Shown: positions 1 to 18,567 of the stretch, piece by piece | How the letters are laid out: each line of letters opens with the position of its first letter | Position numbering within the stretch: position 1 is the stretch's first letter | From: a virus | Length of the DNA stretch: 18,567 bases | IMG/VR virus record: IMGVR_UViG_3300045988_002631 | Coordinates: 1 to 18,567 of that record | Reading direction: 5' to 3' (one strand) | The notes under the pieces: generated by a model | Seen by the model: only the letters and a program-made list of their open reading frames with translations | Database searches by the model: none | What the model was told of the DNA's origin: nothing | Position numbers and translations under genes: made by a program

Positions 1-119
1 CCGACCGGTAGGTAGGTGTGTTTTAGTGTTTTGCTTTGTTTTGTTTTCGGGCGTGTTGTCCGTTTGTTTGTGTTATAGTATAATTATCCGCTTCAAGGGA
101 AAGGAAAATAAAATGATTA
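1..119. repeat. Left inverted terminal repeat, 119 bp, perfect
   Basis: nt 1-119 equal the reverse complement of 18449-18567 with no mismatch. Identity ends at nt 120 (a versus c). The extreme end reads CCGACCGGTAGGTAGGT. nt 11-50 of the top strand are almost pure G/T with repeated GTTTT units. Confidence 0.97.
56..84 (+). promoter_or_regulatory. Sigma-A/sigma-70-type early promoter inside the left ITR
   Basis: TTGTCC (56-61), 17-nt spacer, TATAAT (79-84). An overlapping TGTTATAGT extended -10 lies at 72-80. It is followed by RBS AAGGGAAAGGAAA (95-107) and ATG 113. Confidence 0.6.
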
Positions 120-1623: not shown

Positions 1624-2691
1624 CTATTTTCCTAACAGTTCTCCGATGATCAAACCAAAATCGGCCTTGACTTGTGAGTCGTCGAACCGTATTTTGCCAA
1701 GTCGATAGCCGGTAGTGAGTCGCCTTATTATATCATCTGACTTTTTAACATACCATGTTTTTTCGTCAACGTGGTTCGGGTCAAGCGTGTATGTCGGCCG
1801 GTTATTGTCTTTGGGGATACGTCGTGAAACATATTGTGAAACACGTCCGTCCGTATCCGAAACGGTTATCCAAATACCGAAACGTGCATAGTCGGTAGTG
1901 TCCAGCACATATGACAGTTCGCCGTCACTGGGGATTGGCGCTATCAAAGTGTCCGACTCGTCGCGGAACTTGTTGCGTATCGCATAGTCGGCGTAGTCGC
2001 CGTCGTACCGCTCCAAGAATCTGCCGAACTTTGACTTGGCGACTTTGGCCGAGAAACCGCCATAGTCAGCAAGTTCGAGACAGATAAAACCACCGCAATA
2101 CAACTTGTATTGTTGCTGTTTGGCCTGCTGTGCGCCAATGTCCAACCGGTATTTGGCGAAATATGGATTAGCCTTTTGAACCGCGTTCGATAGGAATAGA
2201 ACTTTTGTTCTATCCTGCCAACGATCTACCGTATTATAGAACTCGCTGAACGAGTTCACTTCATTGCTTAAAAATCGCAGATTGTCGGGGAAAATCTCGT
2301 CGAAAATAATAAGATGCACTTTCGGATAGGCTACCGACTTGAGTCCGCCCGCTTGAGAGAGCGCGACGAAATAACAGCATGTCCTCCAGTCCTTTTCATC
2401 CCACGACGCCTTATGAATCTGCCCTTTTTCGCCGTTGACACGAAACTCGTACGAGGGAAAGAACTCCTGAATGTCCTTGAAAAAGGTCTCTTTCCTATGC
2501 TGTTCCACGTCGGTTCGGCGCAAATAAATGAACTCATGGCCGTGCTTGATATATTCTTTGATGCCATACCGTTTAGCGGCGAACGTCTTGCCTAGGCCAC
2601 GCGCGCCGATTATGAAATTCCATGGGGCGTTTCGCGTCAACAGATTATGCAGATCGTAATAATCGCCTTCGTCAAGCGTCTGCAATGTCAT
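1624..2691 (-). CDS. DNA packaging (encapsidation) ATPase, phi29 gp16-type
   Basis: Start set at ATG 2691, with AGGAGGG 8 nt upstream. Walker A is NFIIGARGLGKT and Walker B is HLIIFDE. The N-terminus matches remembered phi29 gp16 spacing (NFVIGARGIGKS...FIYVRR versus NFIIGARGLGKT...FIYLRR). The in-frame extension to 2790 runs through a 14-bp hairpin and lacks an RBS. Confidence 0.9.
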   Translation of the reverse strand: MTLQTLDEGDYYDLHNLLTRNAPWNFIIGARGLGKTFAAKRYGIKEYIKHGHEFIYLRRTDVEQHRKETFFKDIQEFFPSYEFRVNGEKGQIHKASWDEKDWRTCCYFVALSQAGGLKSVAYPKVHLIIFDEIFPDNLRFLSNEVNSFSEFYNTVDRWQDRTKVLFLSNAVQKANPYFAKYRLDIGAQQAKQQQYKLYCGGFICLELADYGGFSAKVAKSKFGRFLERYDGDYADYAIRNKFRDESDTLIAPIPSDGELSYVLDTTDYARFGIWITVSDTDGRVSQYVSRRIPKDNNRPTYTLDPNHVDEKTWYVKKSDDIIRRLTTGYRLGKIRFDDSQVKADFGLIIGELLGK

Positions 2692-2713
2692 GCTTGCAAC
2701 CCTCCTAAAACTA

Positions 2714-2749
2714 GTGGAGGGCGTGCGCCATGACTCGCACGCCCTCCAC
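2714..2749 (-). terminator. GC-rich 14-bp hairpin plus U-run directly upstream of the ATPase RBS (terminator/attenuator)
   Basis: GTGGAGGGCGTGCG (2714-2727) pairs perfectly with CGCACGCCCTCCAC (2736-2749), with an 8-nt loop. On the minus strand it is followed by UAGUUUUAGGAGGG, so the U-run merges into the SD. Confidence 0.55.
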
Positions 2750-2809
2750 CAACCTATCATTGGCAGCCGTTCAAGGGGAAAGGTCATCATACAACCACTG
2801 CCACTATTA

Positions 2810-4088: not shown

Positions 4089-5999
4089 TCAGCTTTCGTA
4101 AAGATAGCCGTCAGAAGGGCGTACCCTGATTTTCCATGCGCTCTTAAAATTGCGATTGACACGCAAGTAGAGCCTGTACTTTTCGTCCGGCAAGGTGACG
4201 TTTTTGTTATCTCCTGTGGTTATGTCGCCATTCTGCCCATTGGAGTAGGCCCAAATGATGCGTGCATGATCTTTGTCGAGCACAAAGGACGCATGTACTG
4301 CGACACTATCATCATTGCCAACAGCGGGCGTCCTGGTGTCGGTCGAGTCAAAAGCCACCGTGTCTCTATTGTCTTGGTAGAAGCCACCGAAGGTGGCGCC
4401 ATTACGTCGCACGCCCGCGATAATGCCGACCTGTCCGGCCTTCTTGTTATCCTCCCACGGTTCGATATCCGTGCTTTCCTTGACGGCCACGACTGCGATG
4501 TTGCGTGTATCTCCAGCCGTACCGATCTGCACGCGGCTCATGAAGCCTTCGAGGTCGATTGACACCGGCAAAGTCACCTGTCCAACCTCAACGAGTTCGA
4601 CGGCCATCTGTCCGTCAGCGTCTCCGAGTTGGAATAGTCCGTCCGGCGCCAAGTACGTGCTTTTGGCTCTGTCAGCGTCCGAAATGTCAACATAAGCTTG
4701 CTGTCCGTACGCTTGGAAACGTGTTGGACGGATGAAAGTATTTTCGCCGGTGCTGAATGGCGTGAAGTTGCGGCACATCTGTTTTGTCGCATAATCCGGC
4801 CAATTGGAGGTGATGCCATCCACTCCAAGCGCGGTGACTCGCTCATATGCCACTGGGTCGTTGATGAGCCACGGATTGATTTTGACGCCCGCCGAATGCG
4901 CGGCGCTGACCATCGAAGAAGTGAGTTTGTCTTCATGCGGGTTGCCGCAGAAAATGCCGGCATTCTTCATGTCAGTCCAAGAGTGCGGCATGGCGTCCAC
5001 ATCCCACGTGTATGACACGTATTTCGCTCCGCCTTGCACTGCGCGGACGCATTGTTCCCAGCTGAACGAAGTCAATTCGTGGATTGCGGTTGCATTATAC
5101 TTGCGTAGCAGTTCCAGCATGGCGTCGGTGGTGGCGTTGTCCAGTGACTTGATTTCAAAATCAACCGGACTGTCACCCACGGCTTGGAGCACCTGCTCCA
5201 TGCTTACCGGCTTGCCGGTATTGCCGCCATGCACTTTAGCCTTGACCTCTCGGCTCATGAAGTCCTTGCAGGTGATGGCGGAGACATTGGCTGCGGAGCC
5301 TGTCATGGTGCGGGCGGTGGAGGTGTCGTGTAGGATTACGGGTATGCCGTCCGACGTGAGTTGCACGTCGATTTCTGGAACGTATCCGTGACGTACCGCC
5401 CACATGATTCCCTCCATTGTGTTTTCGGGGAAACGGTACGAGCCACGGTGCGCGTGGATAATGAAGTGCGAGTCAAGCTTGCTGTCTACACGCGCGTCCG
5501 CGAGTTCATCGACTTTGGCTGCGGTGTTGTCCAGCTTGGTTTTTTGTGCTGTGGCGTCAACGGTTGAGCTTGCTCCAAGTGCGGTGAGGATTGTTGTGTT
5601 GTTGTCGGCCTTGCTTATGGCGGTTACTGCGTCCGATCCCGCTTTGTCCCATTTGGTTTTATTGGCGGTGGCGTTCGCTGTGGTGTCAGCTCCCAACGCG
5701 GCAAGGATCGCCGTGTTGTTGTCGGCCTTACCTGCGGCAGCGGTAGCGTCCGACTCCGCCTTGTCCCACTTGTTTTTCGCTGCGGTGGCGCTATCGACGG
5801 TGTTGTCGCCAATTAGCGCCTTGACCACTTCCTCGTCATGTGTTTCACGCGACTCCATACCCTCAATGCGATTGAGGTGCGTTTCCAAAGTCGTATCAAT
5901 GGTGCGCATGGAGTTGTTGTAGCCGTCGCGCAAGTCTGCGGGGTCGGTGTCTCCGTAGAGGTTGAGGGCGTAATTATCGGTCTTGGTGTAGGTGGTCAT
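4089..5999 (-). CDS. Tail appendage/receptor-binding protein with glycerophosphodiester phosphodiesterase (GDPD) domain
   Basis: 636 aa. It has an N-terminal fibre-anchor motif (LNLYGDTDPADLRDGYNNSMRTID) and 2.4 copies of a 39-aa repeat. The GDPD signature is IIHAHRGSYRFPENTMEGI...PEIDVQLTSDGIPVILHD...GVDGITSNWPDY (about residues 178-403, nt 4791-5468). A beta-rich C-terminal domain of ~230 aa follows. Its ATG overlaps the upstream stop (ATGA). Confidence 0.85.
   Translation of the reverse strand: MTTYTKTDNYALNLYGDTDPADLRDGYNNSMRTIDTTLETHLNRIEGMESRETHDEEVVKALIGDNTVDSATAAKNKWDKAESDATAAAGKADNNTAILAALGADTTANATANKTKWDKAGSDAVTAISKADNNTTILTALGASSTVDATAQKTKLDNTAAKVDELADARVDSKLDSHFIIHAHRGSYRFPENTMEGIMWAVRHGYVPEIDVQLTSDGIPVILHDTSTARTMTGSAANVSAITCKDFMSREVKAKVHGGNTGKPVSMEQVLQAVGDSPVDFEIKSLDNATTDAMLELLRKYNATAIHELTSFSWEQCVRAVQGGAKYVSYTWDVDAMPHSWTDMKNAGIFCGNPHEDKLTSSMVSAAHSAGVKINPWLINDPVAYERVTALGVDGITSNWPDYATKQMCRNFTPFSTGENTFIRPTRFQAYGQQAYVDISDADRAKSTYLAPDGLFQLGDADGQMAVELVEVGQVTLPVSIDLEGFMSRVQIGTAGDTRNIAVVAVKESTDIEPWEDNKKAGQVGIIAGVRRNGATFGGFYQDNRDTVAFDSTDTRTPAVGNDDSVAVHASFVLDKDHARIIWAYSNGQNGDITTGDNKNVTLPDEKYRLYLRVNRNFKSAWKIRVRPSDGYLYES
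5505..5804 (-). repeat. In-frame tandem repeat, 117-bp (39-aa) unit, about 2.4 copies, in the appendage shaft
   Basis: Copy 1 is KNKWDKAESDATAAAGKADNNTAILAALGADTTANATAN. Copy 2 is KTKWDKAGSDAVTAISKADNNTTILTALGASSTVDATAQ. A partial third copy begins KTKLDNTAAK. Confidence 0.85.
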
Positions 6000-6715: not shown

Positions 6716-7528
6716 CTAGTGGCCGAGATTGTAGGCGAGTGACGTGGAATACAATTGTGGCACGTTGGTCATGTTGTCACCGCTCCCCCACACACCCATA
6801 AACAAGTCTTCCAAAGAGTTGATTACCATCATGTCGATGTTGAGCATGGTGTTACGCCAATCCTGTAAGAGCTGTGACTGCGAGCCACTGGTGCCGAGCG
6901 TATGCGACACGCTGTTTCCCTTGTCGGAGGAATGCAAAAAATCGGTGTTGCTGGTGCTGGACGCGGTGGCGGTACTGTCCTGCTGAGTGCTCGTATGCGT
7001 GTTGCCTGTCGAGTCCGTTTGCGATGCGGTTGTGGCGTACCTTCGGAAGTCGTCAATGCGAGTCTGCGGAAACTCGCTGTTGAACGTCATTGACGAATTG
7101 TCGGCCGTGGTGTCGGACGTGCTGTTCGCAGTGGACTCGTTCGATTGTGTGCCGCTCGATTTGCCACTGGACTCGTTAACACTGGTGGAGTCCATCGACT
7201 GCTTAATGTCGGACGTGATAAAGGGGTCAAACTTGCGCTGGGCGGACAAATAGAGTTGGTTGAAATAGTCCATCTGCTCTCGCATGGTACGGCCTAGATA
7301 AAACACGAACATTTGCGGCGTTTCACTGCCGATTTCACGCAGTGCGTAGTGCGCCACTATTTTCTCGTTGAGGATCGCCCTGTGGTTTTCGTCGAAAATC
7401 GGATAATATTGAGCGCTCAAATGCAGTTTTTCATCCGTGTCAAAACCGCGTGCAATTAGATTACCAAGCGTTAAGGTGTAATCCGCCATGCTGTCTTTAA
7501 CCGCATACATGCTCAAGTCCTGCACCAT
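6716..7528 (-). CDS. Lower collar protein (phi29 gp11-like)
   Basis: 270 aa. It follows the connector gene directly (stop, 2 nt, ATG). The N-terminal region YYPIFDENHRAILNEKIVAHYALREIGSETPQMF matches my recollection of the lower-collar family. The middle and C-terminal parts are Ser/Thr/Asn-rich low complexity. Confidence 0.65.
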   Translation of the reverse strand: MVQDLSMYAVKDSMADYTLTLGNLIARGFDTDEKLHLSAQYYPIFDENHRAILNEKIVAHYALREIGSETPQMFVFYLGRTMREQMDYFNQLYLSAQRKFDPFITSDIKQSMDSTSVNESSGKSSGTQSNESTANSTSDTTADNSSMTFNSEFPQTRIDDFRRYATTASQTDSTGNTHTSTQQDSTATASSTSNTDFLHSSDKGNSVSHTLGTSGSQSQLLQDWRNTMLNIDMMVINSLEDLFMGVWGSGDNMTNVPQLYSTSLAYNLGH

Positions 7529-7530
7529 AT

Positions 7531-8469
7531 TTATTCCTCTTCCTTGTTTCCGTCAACGTCCAAGAGTCCGCCCGAAGTCGTGTCGTTCCACTCGATACCG
7601 ATCGGCTTCCCAGAGTCGGCCATTTGCGGCCACAACCGGTTGATCGTGTCGCACGCCTGTTGACGCGCCTTCAAGTAGCTCAGGCGAAAGACGTTTGTGC
7701 GACTGTTTCCTGCAGTCACTTCCGACTCAAGTAGTCGTTCCTTCTTCTCCGTCGTGCTGTTGTCGATGCCGAGGTAGTTTACAAGTTCGTTCCAGATCTG
7801 CGTCTTCGTCGTGATGATCTTATCCGCCAAAAACGGGGTGACGTTGGGGAATGTCTGGAACATGCCGGTAATGTCGGCGCTATCGTACGTGTAAATGTAT
7901 GGGTCTCCGTCTTCGCGCGCCTTCATCAAGTTTTGGGCGGTGAGTTTGTTGGTTTCGGACGTGGCGATGATCAACGGCACCGAAATATTGTCGAGGTTGA
8001 CGTCCAACGCGCGGTCTGCAATGGCGAGTCGTGTGGCGTAATTCCACATGACGTCAATCATGGTGCATCTGAGCTGATTATCCCAAATCGGTACGCATTC
8101 CTTGCTCCCGATTTGCGGGTGCGAGTAGTTTGTGGCAACCGGCTGAAAAGACGTCGGATTATTGTAATTGTTGACTCCGCCAAGCGCTCCCGACGTGACC
8201 ATGAAACGGTGCACACCCTTGCGCTTATCGGGGAAGAAGAGTGCTAGGCCGTTTTCAAAAAGGGTCAGTTCCAGGTATCGTTCGTCAATGTAGGGAGGAA
8301 GGTTAATCCACTTGAACCGCGACACTGCCAACATCTCAATCAGCTTCATATATTGATTGATGCGCAGTGACTGCCGCATTTCAGGTAGGTTCAGATTGCC
8401 CCACATGGAGCCAAGCACGCTCTGGTTATCCCAGTGCGTGGCCCTACGCGCGTTATTGCGCTTGCCCAT
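7531..8469 (-). CDS. Head-tail connector / portal (phi29 gp10-like upper collar)
   Basis: 312 aa from ATG 8469; the ORF track starts at GTG 8478. The N-terminus is basic (MGKRNNARR). The motif FKWINLPPYIDERYLELTLFENGLALFF parallels remembered phi29 gp10 (FEWENLPPTINPSFLEKSI...GYVGFY). Size and position also match. Confidence 0.8.
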   Translation of the reverse strand: MGKRNNARRATHWDNQSVLGSMWGNLNLPEMRQSLRINQYMKLIEMLAVSRFKWINLPPYIDERYLELTLFENGLALFFPDKRKGVHRFMVTSGALGGVNNYNNPTSFQPVATNYSHPQIGSKECVPIWDNQLRCTMIDVMWNYATRLAIADRALDVNLDNISVPLIIATSETNKLTAQNLMKAREDGDPYIYTYDSADITGMFQTFPNVTPFLADKIITTKTQIWNELVNYLGIDNSTTEKKERLLESEVTAGNSRTNVFRLSYLKARQQACDTINRLWPQMADSGKPIGIEWNDTTSGGLLDVDGNKEEE

Positions 8470-8491
8470 GTTTTTCACCGTCCTTAATAAT

Positions 8492-10824: not shown

Positions 10825-12549
10825 TTAACCTTTGGCGGCAATGGAAACTTGCGTATCGCCTTCTGCGCCTGCAAACTTTGCGGCAACATTGGCAGTACCT
10901 GCCGCCTTGCCAGTCACTACGCCGTTAGGACTGATAGTTGCGGCAGAGCCGCCAACTACCCATCGTGCGAGATTGGTTACGTCGACAGTATTCCCGTCTG
11001 TCTTACGGGCAATGGCCTTAAGTGCCGTGGACTCTCCGACCTTGATGTCCTTGTTGCCATCGATTCTAAGGGATTCGATGGCTCCCGTCTTCCAGCCGCC
11101 GAGCCAAGTACCGACCACCGGCACATCGAGCGCGGCGGAAACCGTCTGGTCGATTTCCGGCGTTGCCGGATTGATATAGGTGGCCTGAGCCGTGACCTTA
11201 AGCGTTTCGGCGGTTTCGTCCAAACCGCAACGCAGGATGCCATTATTATCGATAGTGGTAAACTGTGAAGTCGCGCCCTCAAGTCCATAGGTGATGCCGA
11301 CCGGCTGGAAGGACGCATTAGCCTTGTTACCACTTTCGATAGTGGACACCACCTGCACCAAGTCGCCACGGGACACGTTTTGCGGGGTGACGGCGGGCTG
11401 ACCGTATTTCTGCACTTTAAGCTCGAATATCGGCTTGCTGGTAGTAAGAGTATCGGGCAACGTAACGGAATTGACGGAACCTTCACCAGTCCAAAACAGA
11501 ATCGCGTTCGCAAACGGGTTAGGGGTGATGCTGCCACGATGCTTGTAGAAGATGTTGCGCGTGCCGTCAATCGGGTTCACGGGGGAGTTGGTGGTTTCCA
11601 ACATTTCATCCCAGCAGAAAAAGAAGTCCTCCGTGGTCAGGACGGCCTGTACCTTACCGCCCTGTCCGCCGATACCGAACATGTCCTCCGGGATCGGGAT
11701 GATGCGATATGGCACGTTCACCTTGTCGATGTTGAACGCGGCGGCCAATGCTTCGACGTTGAGCGCTGCGATAACCTGCGGGGTGGCGAAGAGGATGGCT
11801 TCCGAATCGCGCCACGGAGTCACCCACGACATGGCATTATATCGGGGCATGGCGCTCATTGGCGACGCCTTGAGTTCGTTCGCCATCTGCTGAATGAGTC
11901 GCAGCAGGCCCTTCGCGTCCGCTTCGGTCGAGTCGGCCTTGCCAACGTCGGGGGTATGCACGCGGTAGAAACCGCCCTTACGCGCATACTCGGCAAAGCA
12001 CTGAGTCTTCATCAAGTACATGTCGTTTCTATCCGAAAGGATAGGCGCGTTCATGATTTCCGCGATGTAATCCGACATTCCGCTTTCGCCATCAAAAGCG
12101 GTCAACAAAGCGTCTTCCGGGATAGTGACGGGATAATAATGATCGAACGTGAGCGGGTGGAATACGGACGCGGTTGGCAGCGAGTATCGTCCATACACAT
12201 CATCCCCAAGGTACTCTTTGTTAAAATTACGGGTGCGTGCCTTGACCAAGCCGACTGCGGCCTGTTCGTAGGTGCTGCCGTAGCGCTTCAAGGTGCGGGG
12301 GGAGCCGATAAGCTTGAGCGGGTCATCCCAGTCGGCGTGCTGGATATAAAGGCCGATCAGTCGCTGGATAAGCACCCCCGTGAACTCGTCACGAAGGTAG
12401 GGGAAGTTGCGCATGGTGTCCACCGCATTGCGGATATTGCCTTGAGTCGCGGAGGGAATGCGGGTCTGGAACTGTGGTGAAGTGGCGTTACGGACGGCGT
12501 TGAAAATCTCAACGTCACCCTTGCCTGCAAGTGGTCGAATATTGGACAT
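10825..12549 (-). CDS. Major capsid protein with C-terminal Ig-like (Big_2) decoration domain(s)
   Basis: 574 aa. It follows the scaffold gene directly, has RBS GAAAGG, and is closed by a terminator. The last ~85 aa (LRIDGNKDIKVGESTALKAIARKTDGNTVDVTNLARWVVGGSAATISPNGVVTGKAAGTANVAAKF) fit the Big_2 pattern, as in phi29 gp8. A second Ig-like stretch precedes it. Confidence 0.8.
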   Translation of the reverse strand: MSNIRPLAGKGDVEIFNAVRNATSPQFQTRIPSATQGNIRNAVDTMRNFPYLRDEFTGVLIQRLIGLYIQHADWDDPLKLIGSPRTLKRYGSTYEQAAVGLVKARTRNFNKEYLGDDVYGRYSLPTASVFHPLTFDHYYPVTIPEDALLTAFDGESGMSDYIAEIMNAPILSDRNDMYLMKTQCFAEYARKGGFYRVHTPDVGKADSTEADAKGLLRLIQQMANELKASPMSAMPRYNAMSWVTPWRDSEAILFATPQVIAALNVEALAAAFNIDKVNVPYRIIPIPEDMFGIGGQGGKVQAVLTTEDFFFCWDEMLETTNSPVNPIDGTRNIFYKHRGSITPNPFANAILFWTGEGSVNSVTLPDTLTTSKPIFELKVQKYGQPAVTPQNVSRGDLVQVVSTIESGNKANASFQPVGITYGLEGATSQFTTIDNNGILRCGLDETAETLKVTAQATYINPATPEIDQTVSAALDVPVVGTWLGGWKTGAIESLRIDGNKDIKVGESTALKAIARKTDGNTVDVTNLARWVVGGSAATISPNGVVTGKAAGTANVAAKFAGAEGDTQVSIAAKG

Positions 12550-12565
12550 TGTTTATACCTTTCTT

Positions 12566-12847
12566 TTAGTCGAACAAATCTTCGATTGACTCGCCATCAT
12601 TGTCGTTGTCGCCGTCATTGTCGGACGGTGCCGGTTCGGTGTAGCCAAGCGTGTCCATCATGGCCTTGAGTGCGGCCAATTCCTTTTCGATACCGTCAAG
12701 GCGCGCGCTTACATCCGGTTCGGACGGCTCCGGTTCCGGTTCCGGTTCTTTCGGCTTGACCTCATCGTCAACGGTTTCCGTCTGCTGTTCCTCTTCGGTC
12801 GGCGGCGGAGTAGTTGTTTCCTCTCCCTCATTGTTTGGATCTGCCAT
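12566..12847 (-). CDS. Putative scaffolding protein (93 aa, highly acidic)
   Basis: The start is ATG 12847 with AAGGAG 7 nt upstream. The protein begins MADPNNEGEETTTPPPTEEEQQ... and has a PEPEPEPEP tract and a helical C-terminus (LDGIEKELAALKAMMDTLG). Size and position immediately upstream of the capsid gene match phi29 gp7. Confidence 0.6.
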   Translation of the reverse strand: MADPNNEGEETTTPPPTEEEQQTETVDDEVKPKEPEPEPEPSEPDVSARLDGIEKELAALKAMMDTLGYTEPAPSDNDGDNDNDGESIEDLFD

Positions 12848-12881
12848 GCAAAACTCCTTACATTGTAGTGTTTTCATCAAA

Positions 12882-12890
12882 ATTATATCA
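12882..12890 (-). promoter_or_regulatory. Late-operon promoter candidate, extended -10 TGATATAAT
   Basis: The minus strand reads TGATATAAT, about 35 nt upstream of the scaffold ATG and just downstream of the early terminator. There is no good -35 (TCATTT at 17-nt spacing), which would fit activator dependence. Confidence 0.5.
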
Positions 12891-12899
12891 TGCGGTGGG

Positions 12900-12930
12900 A
12901 AAATAAATGACCCCGCAATCACGCGGGGTC
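12900..12930 (-). terminator. Intrinsic terminator ending the early/replication transcription unit
   Basis: GACCCCGC / GCGGGGUC forms an 8-bp stem (12909-12916 with 12923-12930) with a 6-nt loop. On the minus strand it is followed by AUUUAUUUU (12900-12908). Confidence 0.75.
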
Positions 12931-13069
12931 GAACCGTCCTATGTGAGCGCGAGTTGAAAATCGTAGGGCACTACCGCCACGATAGTGATATTCACGGTCG
13001 GCGGCATTCTCAGCCGTGGCAATCCGACCCATGTTGCTCCCAGTCGAAAATCGACGCTCAGAAGACAAT
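12900..13069 (-). ncRNA. Candidate structured non-coding RNA (prohead/packaging pRNA-like) downstream of the DNA polymerase gene
   Basis: The unit is bounded by an extended -10 (TGTTATAAT, 13074-13082) and the 12900-12930 terminator, giving an RNA of about 165 nt. The 5' segment 13055-13069 pairs with 12933-12950: UGAGCG/CGCUCA, plus GUCUU/AGGAC with one wobble pair. Internal hairpins lie at 13043-13055, 12996-13029 and 12960-12983. The position matches phi29 pRNA. Caveat: a 37-aa ORF (12919-13032, GGGAG 4 nt upstream) also fits this region. Confidence 0.35.
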
Positions 13070-13073
13070 AGGC

Positions 13074-13082
13074 ATTATAACA
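13074..13082 (-). promoter_or_regulatory. Extended -10 promoter TGTTATAAT overlapping the polymerase stop codon
   Basis: The minus strand reads ATG GTC ATG TTA TAA T. The TAA stop of the polymerase lies inside the TATAAT hexamer. Confidence 0.45.
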
Positions 13083-14526
13083 TGACCATTGTCCCGTAAT
13101 CGTCTACGACTTGCGTTCCATGCCTAAACTCTTCGTAAGGAATGGGCTGGGAAAACATGTTTCCGGCCATACATACGTCAACCTCCCCGTCTTCTCTCCA
13201 CCCTTGATAACGGTTCATGCCCAGTATCGTCAATTTCTCATATCGTGCGGCGATCTTCCACTTCCCCAGCTCGGTCGAATGAATCTCACATGATCGCACG
13301 GGTTCCCAACCGCTCAATATGCACCCGTCCGTATTGGCGTACAATAGTCTATCCGCGTTCGCGTGACACACGGTCATAAGTTTGCGACGGGCGTAGGCGT
13401 TGACCCAAATAGGCACGGGGAGGTAATCGGTTTTCAGATTCGACTCTTCGCGTTGCGCTACATCCCAATCCAAGGTTATGCCGTCTTTCGAGAGTGGGAG
13501 CATGACGGCGCCTTTTGGCAGACTCGCCATTTTACCGACAAGCGCGTTCATGATTAGTTTCGCCATCTGCCGTTTCTCTCCCGTCGCCCGCTGTTTCAAT
13601 TCCCCCCATTCATCGATGAACGAGCGGAAAAACCCTTTGGAGCGGCGGAATTTCCACCCCCTGACATGCTTGTAGACGCTCACGTCATAATTCCTATAAA
13701 GTAGTTCCTGGTCAATGTCGGTGAGCACGCGTGTGACGTACCCGCGGGTTGAGGTGAGACGGTTCAGTCCGTAAATACTGCGATTGTCGAGTAGAAATGG
13801 GTAGCCGTTTGGTTTGAGTTCCGCGCGAAACGTGAGTTCGTCGCAATGCAACGGCATGTCATCGTCCTGCTTGTATTCGCCTTCGTATGGTTCCGGTTCA
13901 CCCCACGGCAACCACTCATCCCGCAAAATGCTCGGATACATGCTATTGCAGTCAACGTCGATAGCCTTGCCATAAGTCCCCTCCTTGGCTACCATGAAAC
14001 CGCCGATGTAGGCGTCATGCAATGACTTTTTGGTTTCGGCTTCGAGTTGTGGGAATTTGTCGTAATACCATTTCCACTCGCCGGACGCGAACGCCTCCAT
14101 GCTCGCACCACCTGCGGTGATCTTGCACAAACCGCGGTTGTCGTATTCTCTCAGGATGTCGAGCAGTTGCGTGCCGGTCATGGTAAGCTTACAGTTTTCC
14201 CGCAGAAGATTCGATATGTCGAAGAAACGTGTGGAATTTTCGCGGTCGATGCGCACTGTGAAGCTGAAGAACTTGCCTTTTTTCGACACTATCGCATCCC
14301 AACTCAAGTTAGAGTTGTGTTCGTTGTGGGGGAGTGAGTGTACGACGTGCGCGATAAACGAGTCCAGTAGTTCGGGTTTAGTCACGTAGACGGTGAGTTT
14401 GCCGCCTGACATGATGGACGCCAAAAGACTCTTAGGCGCGGTGACGTCACGCAGGACGGTGCCGTCCGTAAAGCGTATGACGTTATCCGCACACCATAAT
14501 CCCACCCTGTTATCTTGCATGGTCAT
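13075..14526 (-). CDS. Protein-primed family-B DNA polymerase (phi29 gp2-like), compact and divergent
   Basis: 483 aa. Long colinear matches to remembered phi29 DNAP: ITAGGASMEAF/MTAGSDSLKGF, DAYIGGF/YAYRGGF, DCNSMYPS/DVNSLYPA (motif A), LPWGEPEPYEGEY..DDMPLH/LPYGEPIVFEGKY..EDYPLH, and FIDEWGELK/FIDKWTYIK. Further matches are KLIMNALVGK/KLMLNSLYGK (motif B), VNAYARR/ITAWARY, YANTDG/YCDTDS (motif C) and LGKW...NRY/LGYW...KTY. Confidence 0.93.
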   Translation of the reverse strand: MTMQDNRVGLWCADNVIRFTDGTVLRDVTAPKSLLASIMSGGKLTVYVTKPELLDSFIAHVVHSLPHNEHNSNLSWDAIVSKKGKFFSFTVRIDRENSTRFFDISNLLRENCKLTMTGTQLLDILREYDNRGLCKITAGGASMEAFASGEWKWYYDKFPQLEAETKKSLHDAYIGGFMVAKEGTYGKAIDVDCNSMYPSILRDEWLPWGEPEPYEGEYKQDDDMPLHCDELTFRAELKPNGYPFLLDNRSIYGLNRLTSTRGYVTRVLTDIDQELLYRNYDVSVYKHVRGWKFRRSKGFFRSFIDEWGELKQRATGEKRQMAKLIMNALVGKMASLPKGAVMLPLSKDGITLDWDVAQREESNLKTDYLPVPIWVNAYARRKLMTVCHANADRLLYANTDGCILSGWEPVRSCEIHSTELGKWKIAARYEKLTILGMNRYQGWREDGEVDVCMAGNMFSQPIPYEEFRHGTQVVDDYGTMVML

Positions 14527-17733: not shown

Positions 17734-17742
17734 TATAACACC

Positions 17743-18110: not shown

Positions 18111-18455
18111 TCAAGCTTTAACCAACTCATAACAATCACCCTTAACCACATCAAACCGACCAAGCTTAAACCCATAATCGGCAAGGAAATCGTTGGCGGA
18201 ATACTCCCAATCAATGCCGCAAACAGCCCCGCAAATGCCAGTAATCCGTTCTGCATCATTATCATGGAATAGATCATAATCGTCATCCACCCAAAGGTCA
18301 AAATACCAAGTATCATCCCCAGTTTGTTGCCACATGCCAAAACCGGTGATATTATCGGCAAATATCAACGAAGTCCAACCCTCATCACCCTTAACGACAA
18401 CCAAGTCAACCGGTATTGCGTTATCGGTGTAAACGTCAACCCCTGTTGTAATCAT
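18111..18455 (-). CDS. Hyperacidic, Trp-rich 114-aa immediate-early protein, function unknown
   Basis: ATG 18455 lies inside the right ITR with the same promoter and RBS as the left gene. The protein begins MITTGVDVYTDN and has 19 Asp + 4 Glu against 4 Lys + 2 Arg, plus 5 Trp. No family recognised. Confidence 0.7.
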   Translation of the reverse strand: MITTGVDVYTDNAIPVDLVVVKGDEGWTSLIFADNITGFGMWQQTGDDTWYFDLWVDDDYDLFHDNDAERITGICGAVCGIDWEYSANDFLADYGFKLGRFDVVKGDCYELVKA

Positions 18456-18567
18456 TTTATTTTCCTTTCCCTTGAAGCGGATAATTATACTATAACACAA
18501 ACAAACGGACAACACGCCCGAAAACAAAACAAAGCAAAACACTAAAACACACCTACCTACCGGTCGG
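18449..18567. repeat. Right inverted terminal repeat, 119 bp, perfect
   Basis: Reverse complement is identical to nt 1-119. It includes the promoter, RBS, ATG and the next 4 nt of the terminal gene. Confidence 0.97.
18484..18512 (-). promoter_or_regulatory. Identical early promoter inside the right ITR, firing leftward
   Basis: Mirror copy of 56-84: -35 at 18507-18512 and -10 at 18484-18489 on the minus strand. It drives the whole minus-strand early block, starting at ATG 18455. Confidence 0.6.

What the first reader, a model, noticed from the sequence alone, without database searches (positions are those of the whole stretch)
12900..13082. Promoter-to-terminator structured RNA unit at the phi29 pRNA position (candidate prohead/packaging RNA)
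The largest non-coding gap in the genome (12848-13074) follows the polymerase gene. It starts with an extended -10 (TGTTATAAT) overlapping the polymerase stop codon. It ends at a strong GC-rich terminator (12900-12930), which defines an RNA of about 165 nt. In that RNA the 5' end (13055-13069) pairs with the segment just before the terminator (12933-12950): UGAGCG/CGCUCA plus GUCUU/AGGAC, separated by a small internal loop. The middle forms a bulged stem-loop: GGUCGG/CCGACC at 13024-13029 with 12996-13001, a 7-nt bulge AUUGCCA, CGGC/GCCG, and loop UGAGAAU. Two further hairpins are present. The bulge GCCAC (13016-13020) is complementary to GUGGC (12976-12980), so loop-loop pairing within or between molecules is possible. 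Closed 5'/3' ends with a multi-hairpin centre is the architecture of phi29 pRNA. In phi29 the early order is 6-5-4-3-2-1-pRNA, and here the order is p6-like, p5-like, TP, polymerase, then this unit. The phage also encodes a gp16-type ATPase and a connector with a basic N-terminus (MGKRNNARR); in phi29 those are the pRNA partners. As far as I know, experimentally characterised pRNAs come from Bacillus phi29 relatives. An alternative reading is a 37-aa ORF (12919-13032) with GGGAG 4 nt upstream.
Basis: partly seen in the sequence, partly recalled or inferred. Interest (0 to 1): 0.78.

Follow-up and report, generated by a model that had tools for sequence, protein, structure and literature searches.

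The report
Packaging-RNA-like gene in Bifidobacterium phage
A roughly 170-base non-coding RNA gene, with its own promoter and terminator, lies just after the DNA polymerase gene of this phi29-like Bifidobacterium phage; its conserved fold matches in detail the 'prohead RNA' that Bacillus phage phi29 needs to pack its DNA, an RNA described so far only in Bacillus phages.

Summary
The window is a complete 18.6-kb phi29-like Bifidobacterium podophage with 119-bp terminal inverted repeats. It encodes a gp16-type ATPase, a gp10-type connector and a protein-primed polymerase. The 227-nt gap after the polymerase holds an extended -10 promoter, a ~135-nt structured core and a terminator.

All 100 related genomes examined carry the element at the same place. 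Of 41 proposed pairs, 24 show compensatory changes, against about 9 in shuffles and 1-7 in slid controls. The 37-aa ORF is not conserved.

The fold copies the pRNA layout:
- closed 5'/3' helix
- three-way junction
- C helix with a 1-nt bulge
- 7-nt bulge on the 5' strand
- 4-bp E helix with a purine-rich loop
- continuous 13-nt 3' strand
- D hairpin with a 5-nt loop

The end of the bulge is complementary to the D loop, and that pairing covaries.

Rfam's pRNA model does not hit the element, but it also misses the annotated GA-1 pRNA. More distant actinobacterial phi29-like phages carry differently sequenced RNAs of the same layout at the syntenic site.

Best reading: a new sequence family of prohead RNA. 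Its function is inferred, not shown.

The parts
13074..13082 (-). Extended -10 promoter TGTTATAAT of the RNA gene. It overlaps the polymerase stop codon. The predicted transcription start is about 13068-13066.
   Evidence: one of 5 TGNTATAAT sites, all on the coding strand, with 0.35 expected. It is conserved as TGCTATAAT in relatives.
12899..13068 (-). Predicted RNA of about 170 nt: the structured core (13068-12934) plus a terminator hairpin and U tract.
   Evidence: model R1 gives one hit in the window, 12933-13068, at 160 bits.
13054..13066 (-). 5' strand of the closing helix (the A-helix equivalent): GUCUU (13066-13062) and GAGCGU (13059-13054).
   Evidence: helices 1 and 2 are 98.8% and 100% paired, and 5 pairs show changes on both sides.
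12936..12950 (-). 3' strand of the closing helix: GCGCUC (12950-12945) and AGGAC (12940-12936).
13039..13047 (-). 5' strand of helix P2: UCG (13047-13045) and GGG (13041-13039). It competes with the local hairpin GUCGAUUUUCGAC (13055-13043).
   Evidence: helices 3 and 4: U-A to C-G, C-G to U-A and G-C to A-U changes; the local hairpin has one double change, matched by 81 of 500 shuffles.
12961..12968 (-). 3' strand of helix P2: CCC (12968-12966) and CGA (12963-12961). It directly follows the D hairpin with no junction bases.
13024..13033 (-). 5' strand of the C helix: CAU, a 1-nt bulge G (13030), then GGUCGG.
   Evidence: helices 5 and 6: 7 of 9 pairs show changes on both sides.
13017..13023 (-). 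CE-type bulge AUUGCCA, on the 5' strand only. Its 3' end GCCA (with C13016) is complementary to the D loop.
13002..13016 (-). E hairpin: CGGC, loop UGAGAAU (13012-13006), GCCG. Almost invariant across relatives.
   Evidence: loop variants are UGAGAAU and UGAAAAC; locus L139 has the compensated helix CGAC/GUCG.
12993..13001 (-). 3' strand of the C helix, CCGACC-GUG. It is continuous with the E helix, giving a 13-nt unbroken 3' strand.
12969..12987 (-). D hairpin: CACUAUC, loop GUGGC (12980-12976), GGUAGUG.
   Evidence: helix 9: all 7 pairs show changes on both sides and 99.8% of cells are paired.
12899..12930 (-). Intrinsic terminator: stem-loop GACCCCGCG UGAU UGCGGGGUC plus a U tract. It sits where domain II lies in phi29 pRNA.
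   Evidence: helix 10: CG to UA compensation in 13 sequences.
12882..12890 (-). Next extended -10 promoter, TGATATAAT, for the late operon (93-aa acidic protein, major capsid protein and downstream genes). It marks the downstream limit of the RNA unit.
   Evidence: The surrounding sequence is invariant.
1624..2790 (-). gp16-type packaging ATPase, the presumed partner of the closing helix.
   Evidence: Pfam Podovirus_Gp16, E = 2e-44, profile positions 2-319 of 331; phi29 motor structure 7jqq_A, E = 8e-37.
7531..8478 (-). gp10-type connector with the basic N-terminus MGKRNNARR, the presumed docking site.
   Evidence: Phage_connector, E = 2e-40; phi29 connector 1h5w, E = 2e-29. N-terminal sequence.

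Best explanation
The gap encodes a discrete small RNA of about 170 nt that is the functional counterpart of phi29 prohead (packaging) RNA.

Shown here:
- The unit is bracketed by a promoter of the phage's own type and a terminator.
- Selection maintains its base pairs.
- Its fold has the pRNA layout.
- The 3' end of its bulge is kept complementary to the D loop.

Inferred by analogy with phi29:
- The C/E arm and E loop contact the connector's basic N-termini and the shell.
- The closing helix projects outward and docks the gp16-type ATPase, which cannot bind the connector itself.
- The assembled motor packages the terminal-protein-capped genome, and the RNA then leaves the particle.
For: 1. 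It is a real RNA gene.
- All 100 related loci carry exactly one full-length copy (109-160 bits), upstream of the scaffold and capsid genes.
- 98.1% of cells are paired.
- 24 of 41 pairs change on both sides, against 9.4 +/- 1.7 in shuffles (0 of 500 reach the observed value) and 1-7 in slid controls (similar result).

2. The layout equals that of pRNA.
- phi29 (Rfam consensus): C helix of 5+4 bp with a 1-nt bulge on the 5' strand, a 9-nt bulge on the 5' strand, a 4-bp E helix, loop UUGAGU, a 13-nt continuous 3' strand, and a D hairpin of 6 bp with a 5-nt loop that abuts the closing helix.
- GA-1: CUGU-G-CAACGG [GCAUCC] UACU GUAAAA AGUA CCGUUG ACAG.
- Window: CAU-G-GGUCGG [AUUGCCA] CGGC UGAGAAU GCCG CCGACC GUG, then a D hairpin of 7 bp with a 5-nt loop that abuts P2.

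3. The kissing nucleotides sit at the same positions as in phi29: the last 4 nt of the bulge and the last 4 nt of the D loop.
- The variable pair is G-C in 67 sequences, G-U in 10, A-U in 6 and never mismatched.
- Across all clades, 31 of 33 distinct bulge/D-loop combinations keep at least 3 Watson-Crick pairs. Permuted sets give 18.8 +/- 2.4, and 0 of 5000 permutations reach 31.

4. The partners are present: a full-length gp16 homologue and a gp10 homologue with a basic N-terminus.

5. The position fits: directly downstream of the polymerase on the same strand, as in phi29 and GA-1.

6. One structural descriptor hits the window RNA, phi29 pRNA and the distant actinophage RNAs. Of 161 hits in 4.1 Mb, 143 fall on these RNAs and 18 fall at 5 other sites.

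7. Distant phi29-like actinophages hold a ~110-nt RNA of the same layout at the syntenic site. Examples are Arthrobacter phage Mendel, Curtobacterium phage Squall, Microbacterium phage Evcara and 'Rhizobium' phage RHph_N3_8. In that family 25 of 28 pairs show compensatory changes.
Against: - There is no experimental evidence of a transcript, of RNA in proheads, or of RNA-dependent packaging.
- No sequence or covariance-model link to known pRNAs was found. Rfam RF00044 gives no hit at E <= 10. My own models do not cross between families. Homology therefore rests on architecture alone, and convergence cannot be excluded.
- Covariation cannot tell pairing between molecules from a pseudoknot within one molecule.
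- Only one of the 4-5 kissing pairs varies informatively in the window clade, and the A-U pair is broken without compensation in 8 of 83 sequences.
- The window RNA has an extra helix (P2) and a U-rich internal loop between the closing helix and the junction, which phi29 lacks.
- The E loop has 7 nt rather than 6.
- The descriptor was written with phi29 in view, so its match to phi29 is not an independent test.
Confidence: 0.7

Rival explanations
1. It is a trans-acting structured small RNA with a function other than packaging. It might sequester a host or phage protein, act as a decoy against a defence system, or regulate the early-to-late switch. The resemblance to pRNA would then be convergent or superficial.
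For: - The unit is an independent promoter-to-terminator gene.
- It has almost invariant loops that look like protein-binding sites.
- No covariance model connects it to known pRNAs.
Against: - The match to pRNA is element by element, including helix lengths, the side of the bulge and the position of the complementary nucleotides.
- The same layout recurs, with different sequences, in every clade of gp16/gp10-encoding actinophages examined.
- No antisense target for the E hairpin exists in the phage genome. With up to 3 mismatches there are 8 matches against 4.6 expected, and the only exact match is the hairpin itself.
Confidence: 0.17
2. It is a cis-acting element of the polymerase or late mRNA. 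It could be a 3'-end stabiliser, a processing site, or an attenuator that controls read-through from the early into the late genes.
For: - It lies exactly at the early/late boundary and ends in a strong hairpin.
- In the distant family the hairpin has no U tract, and no obvious promoter precedes or follows the RNA. There the RNA may be cut out of a longer transcript.
Against: - In the window clade the RNA has its own extended -10 promoter, and the late genes have another immediately after the terminator. Both are conserved. The RNA is therefore not part of the late leader.
- A stabiliser or attenuator does not need a three-way junction, an invariant E loop, or loop/bulge complementarity that covaries.
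Confidence: 0.1
3. The region encodes the 37-aa peptide (13032-12919, minus strand), or a protein on the opposite strand (ORF 12651-13085, plus strand).
For: An ATG with GGGAG upstream and an open frame exist in the window itself.
Against: Among 83 distinct relatives:
- the start codon is ATG or GTG in only 39; the rest have ATA, ACG, ACA and others
- about half have an early stop
- 45 differ in length by a non-multiple of 3 downstream of the start, which also rules out the opposite-strand frame

Substitutions are paired across helices, not synonymous.
Confidence: 0.02

Closest known systems
phi29 prohead/packaging RNA (pRNA; Rfam RF00044 Phage_pRNA)
   Same: - Length is about 170 nt (phi29: 174 nt).
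- A domain with paired 5' and 3' ends is followed by a 3' hairpin domain.
- Three-way junction.
- C helix of 9 bp with a 1-nt bulge on the 5' strand.
- Large bulge on the 5' strand only, then a 4-bp E helix and a loop containing UGAG.
- 13-nt unbroken 3' strand.
- D hairpin with a 5-nt loop that directly abuts the closing helix.
- The last 4 nt of the bulge pair with the last 4 nt of the D loop (phi29 AACC/GGUU; here GCCA/UGGC).
- The gene lies downstream of the polymerase in the early direction.
- The phage encodes gp16 and gp10 homologues.
   Different: - No detectable sequence or covariance-model similarity.
- An extra helix P2 and a U-rich internal loop lie between the closing helix and the junction.
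- The junction strands are 5 nt long, against 1 and 3 nt in phi29.
- The E loop has 7 nt.
- The gene sits between the polymerase and the late operon on the same strand, not near a genome end.
- The host is an actinobacterium.
GA-1 pRNA (annotated misc_RNA, NC_002649 1719-1879)
   Same: - The C/E arm is nearly superimposable: a distal helix of 3-4 bp, a single bulged G on the 5' strand, a proximal helix of 6 bp, a bulge of 6-7 nt, a 4-bp E helix and an A-rich loop. The GA-1 loop is GUAAAA; a variant in the window clade is UGAAAAC.
- Like the window RNA, it is not detected by RF00044.
   Different: - Sequences are unrelated.
- GA-1 is reported to have only 2 kissing pairs and little self-association in vitro (PMC4201828). 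The window RNA has 3-5.
- In GA-1 three small ORFs separate the polymerase gene from the pRNA.
Unannotated ~110-nt RNAs of distant phi29-like actinophages (found here, not previously described as far as the searched literature shows)
   Same: - Same site, immediately upstream of the scaffold and capsid genes.
- Closing helix, three-way junction, a 6-nt bulge on the 5' strand, a 4-bp E helix, loop UUGAAU/UUGGAU/CUGAAA, and a D hairpin.
- Bulge/D-loop complementarity of several types: GCU/AGC, UGCU/AGCA, AGCU/AGCU, UGUU/AACA, GCC/GGC, UGC/GCA.
   Different: - Different primary sequence: conserved 5' CGUGAU and 3' AUCCGA ends.
- No P2-type interruption of the same form.
- The following hairpin of 13-17 bp lacks a U tract.
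- No obvious promoter of its own.
- Covariance models do not cross between the two families.
HK022 put RNA and other cis-acting phage antitermination or leader RNAs
   Same: A structured RNA at an early/late boundary, next to a terminator.
   Different: Those elements act in cis on the transcribing polymerase and consist of two simple stem-loops. This element is bracketed by its own promoter and terminator and has a three-way junction with covarying loop/bulge complementarity. The comparison rests on my own knowledge of put RNA and was not tested here.

Membership tests
Prohead/packaging RNA (pRNA) of phi29-like phages | Encoded by a phage with a gp16-type packaging ATPase and a gp10-type connector | tested here: met
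   Pfam Podovirus_Gp16 E = 2e-44 and Phage_connector E = 2e-40. Best solved relatives are the phi29 motor 7jqq_A (E = 8e-37) and the phi29 connector 1h5w (E = 2e-29).
Prohead/packaging RNA (pRNA) of phi29-like phages | Domain I with its 5' and 3' ends paired in a closing (A) helix | tested here: met
   Helices 13066-13054 with 12950-12936 are 98.8-100% paired, with 5 pairs changed on both sides.
Prohead/packaging RNA (pRNA) of phi29-like phages | Three-way junction joining the closing helix, the C/E arm and the D hairpin | tested here: met
   RNAalifold consensus and pair counts. The junction is reached through an extra helix, P2, that phi29 lacks.
Prohead/packaging RNA (pRNA) of phi29-like phages | C/E arm with a large bulge on the 5' strand only, a 4-bp E helix, a 6-7-nt E loop and an unbroken 3' strand | tested here: met
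   Window arm compared with the Rfam consensus for phi29 and the GA-1 fold. Pairs are supported.
Prohead/packaging RNA (pRNA) of phi29-like phages | Complementarity between the CE bulge and the D loop, maintained by covariation | tested here: met
   The variable pair is G-C 67, G-U 10, A-U 6, with no mismatch. Across clades, 31 of 33 combinations are complementary against 18.8 +/- 2.4 when permuted. One A-U pair is lost in 8 of 83 sequences.
Prohead/packaging RNA (pRNA) of phi29-like phages | The complementarity is used between molecules to build a ring (pentamer) on the prohead | not testable with these tools
   Covariation cannot separate pairing within a molecule from pairing between molecules. 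Helix lengths (C 9 bp, E 4 bp, D 7 bp) resemble those of phi29 (9, 4, 6).
Prohead/packaging RNA (pRNA) of phi29-like phages | Binds proheads and is required for ATPase docking and DNA packaging; absent from mature virions | not testable with these tools
   This needs biochemistry or cryo-EM.
Prohead/packaging RNA (pRNA) of phi29-like phages | Discrete transcript with its own promoter and terminator, downstream of the polymerase gene in the early orientation | tested here: inconclusive
   Sequence signals are present and conserved, and the position agrees with phi29 and GA-1. No transcript data are available.
Rfam RF00044 Phage_pRNA (the curated sequence/structure family) | Scores at or above the family's gathering threshold (100 bits) with the Rfam covariance model | tested here: not met
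   There is no hit at gathering threshold or at E <= 10. Controls: phi29 scores 145 bits, B103 only 50 bits, and the annotated GA-1 pRNA gives no hit at all. The element is therefore not a member of RF00044, but RF00044 does not cover all accepted pRNAs either.
Small protein-coding gene | Start codon and reading frame conserved; substitutions mainly synonymous | tested here: not met
   The start codon is kept in 39 of 83 sequences, and 45 of 83 have frame-breaking length differences.

The most novel reading that the evidence does not exclude
Prohead RNAs are not a peculiarity of Bacillus phages. They may be an ancestral, general component of gp16/gp10 packaging motors. At least three mutually unalignable sequence families, none in Rfam, occur in phages of Actinobacteria: human-gut Bifidobacterium phages, honeybee-gut Bifidobacterium phages, and soil Arthrobacter, Microbacterium and Curtobacterium phages. 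All sit at a fixed site upstream of the scaffold and capsid genes. The window RNA would be the first such RNA recognised in a Bifidobacterium phage.
Probability: 0.6. Interest if true: 0.8.

Novelty: new variant of a known kind. Interest (0 to 1): 0.72.

Why it matters
Since 1987 pRNA has been treated as unique to phi29 and its Bacillus relatives. The reviews I read say so explicitly (PMC5066667, PMC11476376). Its origin, and why one phage group needs an RNA in a protein motor, remain open questions.

A pRNA-type RNA in Bifidobacterium phages, with parallel families in other actinobacterial phi29-like phages, would have four consequences:
- The RNA ring would appear to be a general feature of this motor type.
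- Hundreds of natural sequence variants would become available for studies of pRNA structure, function and RNA nanotechnology.
- A gene missing from current annotation of gut-phage genomes would be added.
- The idea could be tested directly in cultured phages: BP1, BD811P1-3, and isolates such as Mendel, Squall and Evcara.

Tried and rejected
- Rfam search at gathering and E-value thresholds: no pRNA hit, only a weak anti-hemB match to the terminator. Controls show that this is uninformative.
- tRNA/tmRNA scan: nothing found.
- Model R1 (window clade) against BadAztec2, RHph_N3_8, Mendel, Squall, Evcara and phi29: no hit.
- Model R2 (distant clade) against the window, BD811P2, BadAztec2 and phi29, with filters off: no hit. 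No covariance-model bridge between families could be built.
- The 37-aa ORF and the opposite-strand ORF: rejected.
- The small hairpin GUGAAUAUCAC from the minimum-free-energy fold: not conserved.
- Local hairpin GUCGAUUUUCGAC versus helix P2: unresolved. P2 has slightly better covariation.
- Antisense target for the E hairpin in the phage genome: none.
- Locus L024, a 29-kb contig sharing the exact 20-mer: the match lies in an unrelated, apparently coding context with no repeat array. It is taken as a chance match.
- First protein-based locus search: returned only close relatives. Re-ordering the alignment reached the distant clades.
- Folding energy alone: weak for the core (z = -1.71), so it is not used as evidence.
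Full report
**What the window is.**
The window is a complete linear genome with 119-bp perfect terminal inverted repeats. All genes are on the minus strand. It is about 80% identical to Bifidobacterium phage BP1 and about 76% identical to the B. dentium phages BD811P1-3.

Pfam, PHROG and PDB searches identify:

| Coordinates | Protein |
|---|---|
| 13075-14526 | protein-primed B-family polymerase |
| 10825-12549 | Phi29-type major capsid protein |
| 7531-8478 | gp10-type connector, N-terminus MGKRNNARR |
| 6716-7528 | lower collar |
| 1624-2790 | full-length gp16-type encapsidation ATPase; best solved relative is the phi29 motor 7jqq |

**Checking the observation.**
- TGTTATAAT (13082-13074) overlaps the polymerase stop codon.
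- The terminator has a 9-bp stem with 7 G-C pairs at 12930-12909, followed by a U tract.
- The 170-nt stretch folds at -67.1 kcal/mol, z = -3.54.
- The core without the terminator gives only z = -1.71, so folding energy is not the argument.
- TGNTATAAT occurs five times, always on the coding strand, at 17740, 15600, 13082, 12890 and 1735. The expected count is 0.35, and 0 of 200 shuffles reach 5. This is evidently the phage's promoter type.
- One such promoter precedes the RNA, and another follows the terminator to serve the late operon.

**Conservation and covariation.**
The gap is unannotated in all GenBank relatives.
- A 20-mer from the E hairpin retrieved 52 IMG/VR contigs.
- A capsid-protein search added 80 more loci.
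- A covariance model of the core (R1) found exactly one full-length copy in each of 100 loci (109-160 bits). In the capsid-anchored loci it lies about 390-530 nt upstream of the capsid gene.

On the 83 distinct sequences:
- 98.1% of cells form standard pairs.
- 24 of 41 pairs show changes on both sides. Shuffles give 9.4 +/- 1.7, with 0 of 500 reaching the observed value. Versions of the structure slid by 1-3 columns give 1-7.
- The MAFFT-only alignment gives the same picture.
- All 7 pairs of the D hairpin and 7 of 9 pairs of the C helix covary.

The 37-aa ORF is not conserved.
- Its start codon survives in 39 of 83 sequences.
- About half have early stops.
- 45 of 83 differ in length by a non-multiple of three. 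This also rules out the opposite-strand ORF.

**Anatomy (minus strand, 5' to 3').**
1. Closing helix: GUCUU and GAGCGU, paired with GCGCUC and AGGAC.
2. A U-rich internal loop.
3. Helix P2: UCG..GGG paired with CCC..CGA.
4. A three-way junction.
5. C helix: CAU, bulged G, GGUCGG.
6. A 7-nt bulge, AUUGCCA, on the 5' strand only.
7. E helix CGGC/GCCG with loop UGAGAAU.
8. An unbroken 13-nt 3' strand.
9. A 5-nt junction.
10. D hairpin: 7 bp with loop GUGGC. It abuts P2 with no spacer.
11. About 12 nt further on, the terminator.

A local hairpin, GUCGAUUUUCGAC, competes with P2. P2 has more compensated pairs than the hairpin (3 against 1), but the matter is not settled.

**Comparison with known pRNAs.**

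| Feature | phi29 | GA-1 | Window |
|---|---|---|---|
| C helix | 5+4 bp, 1-nt bulge on 5' strand | CUGU-G-CAACGG | CAU-G-GGUCGG |
| Bulge (5' strand) | 9 nt | GCAUCC | AUUGCCA |
| E helix | 4 bp | UACU/AGUA | CGGC/GCCG |
| E loop | UUGAGU | GUAAAA | UGAGAAU |
| 3' strand | 13 nt, unbroken | unbroken | 13 nt, unbroken |
| D hairpin | 6 bp, 5-nt loop, abuts the A helix | present | 7 bp, 5-nt loop, abuts P2 |

The window RNA has this layout element by element. In phi29 the last four bulge nucleotides (AACC) pair with the last four D-loop nucleotides (GGUU) of a neighbouring molecule. In the window the nucleotides in the same positions are GCCA and UGGC.

Within the window clade the only variable pair of this interaction is G-C in 67 sequences, G-U in 10 and A-U in 6, and is never mismatched. 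The A-U pair at the other end is lost without compensation in 8 of 83 sequences, which leaves a constant 3-bp core. Known pRNAs are reported to have 2-5 such pairs (PMC4201828).

**Family tests and controls.**
- Rfam finds nothing in the window, either at gathering threshold or at E <= 10 over 12700-13250.
- The model works on phi29: 145 bits.
- It gives only 50 bits for B103, below its 100-bit threshold.
- It gives no hit at all on the annotated GA-1 pRNA in the same kind of search.

So the element is not a member of RF00044, but that model does not define the class of pRNAs.

**Wider distribution.**
Five more distant phages were examined: BadAztec2 (B. asteroides), Arthrobacter phage Mendel, Curtobacterium phage Squall, Microbacterium phage Evcara and 'Rhizobium' phage RHph_N3_8.
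- They share the gene order SSB, terminal protein, polymerase, gap, scaffold, capsid.
- In each, an unannotated gap of 155-185 nt folds into a closing helix, two inner hairpins and a strong terminal hairpin (z from -2.8 to -6.2).

A second locus search brought in 80 environmental relatives with 44-65% capsid identity to Squall.
- Most have a 13-17-bp hairpin 340-390 nt upstream of the capsid gene, preceded by a structure of about 110 nt that begins CGUGAU and ends AUCCGA.
- In an alignment of 20 of them, 25 of 28 predicted pairs have compensatory changes.
- A model built on that alignment (R2) finds 45 loci, one hit each, always at that site. The hits include sequences not used in training.
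- These RNAs again have a 6-nt bulge on the 5' strand, a 4-bp E helix, a loop UUGAAU/UUGGAU/CUGAAA, and a D hairpin.
- The bulge end and the D loop are complementary with changing sequences: GCU/AGC, UGCU/AGCA, AGCU/AGCU, UGUU/AACA, GCC/GGC, CGC/GCG and UGC/GCA.

Pooling distinct combinations from all clades and phi29, 31 of 33 keep at least 3 Watson-Crick pairs. Permuted sets give 18.8 +/- 2.4, and 0 of 5000 permutations reach 31. Random sequence gives about 20%.

R1 and R2 do not detect each other's families, or phi29.

**Descriptor test.**
I wrote one structural descriptor with these requirements:
- a C helix of at least 7 bp with at most one bulge
- a bulge of 5-9 nt on the 5' strand
- a 4-bp E helix
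- a loop of 6-7 nt beginning (N)UG(A/G)
- a junction of at most 8 nt
- a D hairpin
- at least 3 bp of bulge/D-loop complementarity

It gave 161 hits in 4.1 Mb of held sequence. Of these, 143 fall on the window-type RNAs, the distant-clade RNAs, a third gut-phage type and phi29 pRNA. The other 18 fall at five recurrent sites elsewhere. The descriptor was written after seeing phi29. It therefore measures specificity, not independent discovery.

**Mechanism.**
Shown:
- a conserved, independently bracketed RNA gene
- a fold maintained by selection
- bulge/loop complementarity under selection
- the protein partners encoded in the genome

Inferred from phi29:
- ring formation by pairing between molecules
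- docking on the connector vertex through the C/E arm
- recruitment of the ATPase by the closing helix
- release after packaging

I put 0.7 on this reading.

**Rivals.**

| Rival | Confidence | Main point |
|---|---|---|
| Different trans-acting function | 0.17 | No antisense target was found, and the detailed recurrence of the pRNA layout argues against it. |
| Cis-acting 3'-end or attenuator element | 0.10 | In the window clade the flanking promoters argue against it. In the distant family the RNA has no obvious promoter and its hairpin lacks a U tract, so there it may be processed from a longer transcript. |
| Peptide gene | 0.02 | Neither the start codon nor the frame is conserved. |

**Literature.**
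In the searchable library, pRNA is described only for Bacillus phi29 relatives and is called unique to them (PMC5066667, PMC11476376). Papers on BP1, on the BD811P phages and on Curtobacterium phage Ayka do not mention pRNA. The library does not include most subscription journals, so a prior description elsewhere cannot be excluded.

Noticed in passing
L061:4929-5038, L062:4081-4194, L063:3883-3991, L060:5584-5694, and 41 IMG/VR loci among L143-L208: Distant phi29-like phages carry an unannotated, strongly covarying RNA of about 110 nt (5' CGUGAU ... AUCCGA 3') with the pRNA layout. The group includes Arthrobacter phage Mendel, Curtobacterium phage Squall, Microbacterium phage Evcara, 'Rhizobium' phage RHph_N3_8 and soil metagenome contigs. 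The RNA is followed by a 13-17-bp hairpin without a U tract and lies just upstream of the scaffold and capsid genes.
   Followed up: yes
L059:12706-12883 (minus strand), Bifidobacterium phage BadAztec2: The syntenic 178-nt gap folds (z = -2.8) with a closing helix GUGAGCG/CGCUCAC like the window's. It has an E-type hairpin CGUA-UUAAGU-UACG preceded by a bulge ending AAACC. That is the same bulge end as in phi29, and GGU is available in the next hairpin. It is not detected by either of my models.
   Followed up: partly
L209-L222, about 2470-2588 (plus strand): A further clade of gut-metagenome phages has a third variant at the same site. Its E hairpin is CCGG-AUGAGA-CCGG, the bulge ends ACCA, and the D loop is GUUGG. 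A 17-bp hairpin follows.
   Followed up: partly
L225:1719-1879 (GA-1) and L224:172-287 (B103): Rfam RF00044 does not detect the annotated GA-1 pRNA at E <= 10. It scores B103 at 50 bits, below its own 100-bit threshold. The curated model is too narrow to serve as a test for pRNAs outside the closest phi29 relatives.
   Followed up: yes
window 17740-17732, 15600-15592, 13082-13074, 12890-12882, 1735-1727 (all minus strand): Five exact TGNTATAAT extended -10 elements, all on the coding strand (0.35 expected), appear to define the phage's transcription units: early genes, the terminal protein and polymerase, the RNA, the late structural genes, and the lysis genes (the last promoter lies inside the 3' end of the ATPase gene).
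   Followed up: partly
window 1-119 and 18449-18567: Perfect 119-bp terminal inverted repeats, far longer than the 6-bp repeats of phi29. Each contains a promoter-like TTGTCC-17-TATAAT and a small G+C-rich hairpin.
   Followed up: no
window 13051-13044 and 12963-12956 (minus strand): The motif CGAUUUUC occurs twice within the RNA, once on each side of the junction. Both copies are nearly invariant. They allow two mutually exclusive pairings, a local hairpin or helix P2, which might reflect a conformational switch.
   Followed up: partly
window 10804-10771 and 4073-4039 (minus strand): Two long perfect hairpins of 15-16 bp follow the capsid gene and the 636-aa tail protein gene. Their stems begin AAUAG and end CUAUU, and a U-rich tail follows. 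They are probably further terminators within the late operon.
   Followed up: no
window 4089-5999 (minus strand): The 636-aa tail-fibre-like protein carries a glycerophosphodiester phosphodiesterase (GDPD) domain (E = 9e-23). This suggests degradation of teichoic acid during adsorption.
   Followed up: no
window 12566-12847 (minus strand): The 93-aa protein encoded right after the RNA is very acidic and rich in Pro and Glu (MADPNNEGEETTTPPPTEEEQQTE...). It has no PHROG hit. By position it is the scaffold-protein candidate.
   Followed up: no
L024:2634-2657: A 29-kb IMG/VR contig contains the exact E-hairpin 20-mer (CCACGGCTGAGAATGCCGCC) in an unrelated, apparently coding context. There is no repeat array around it. 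It is most likely a chance match.
   Followed up: partly
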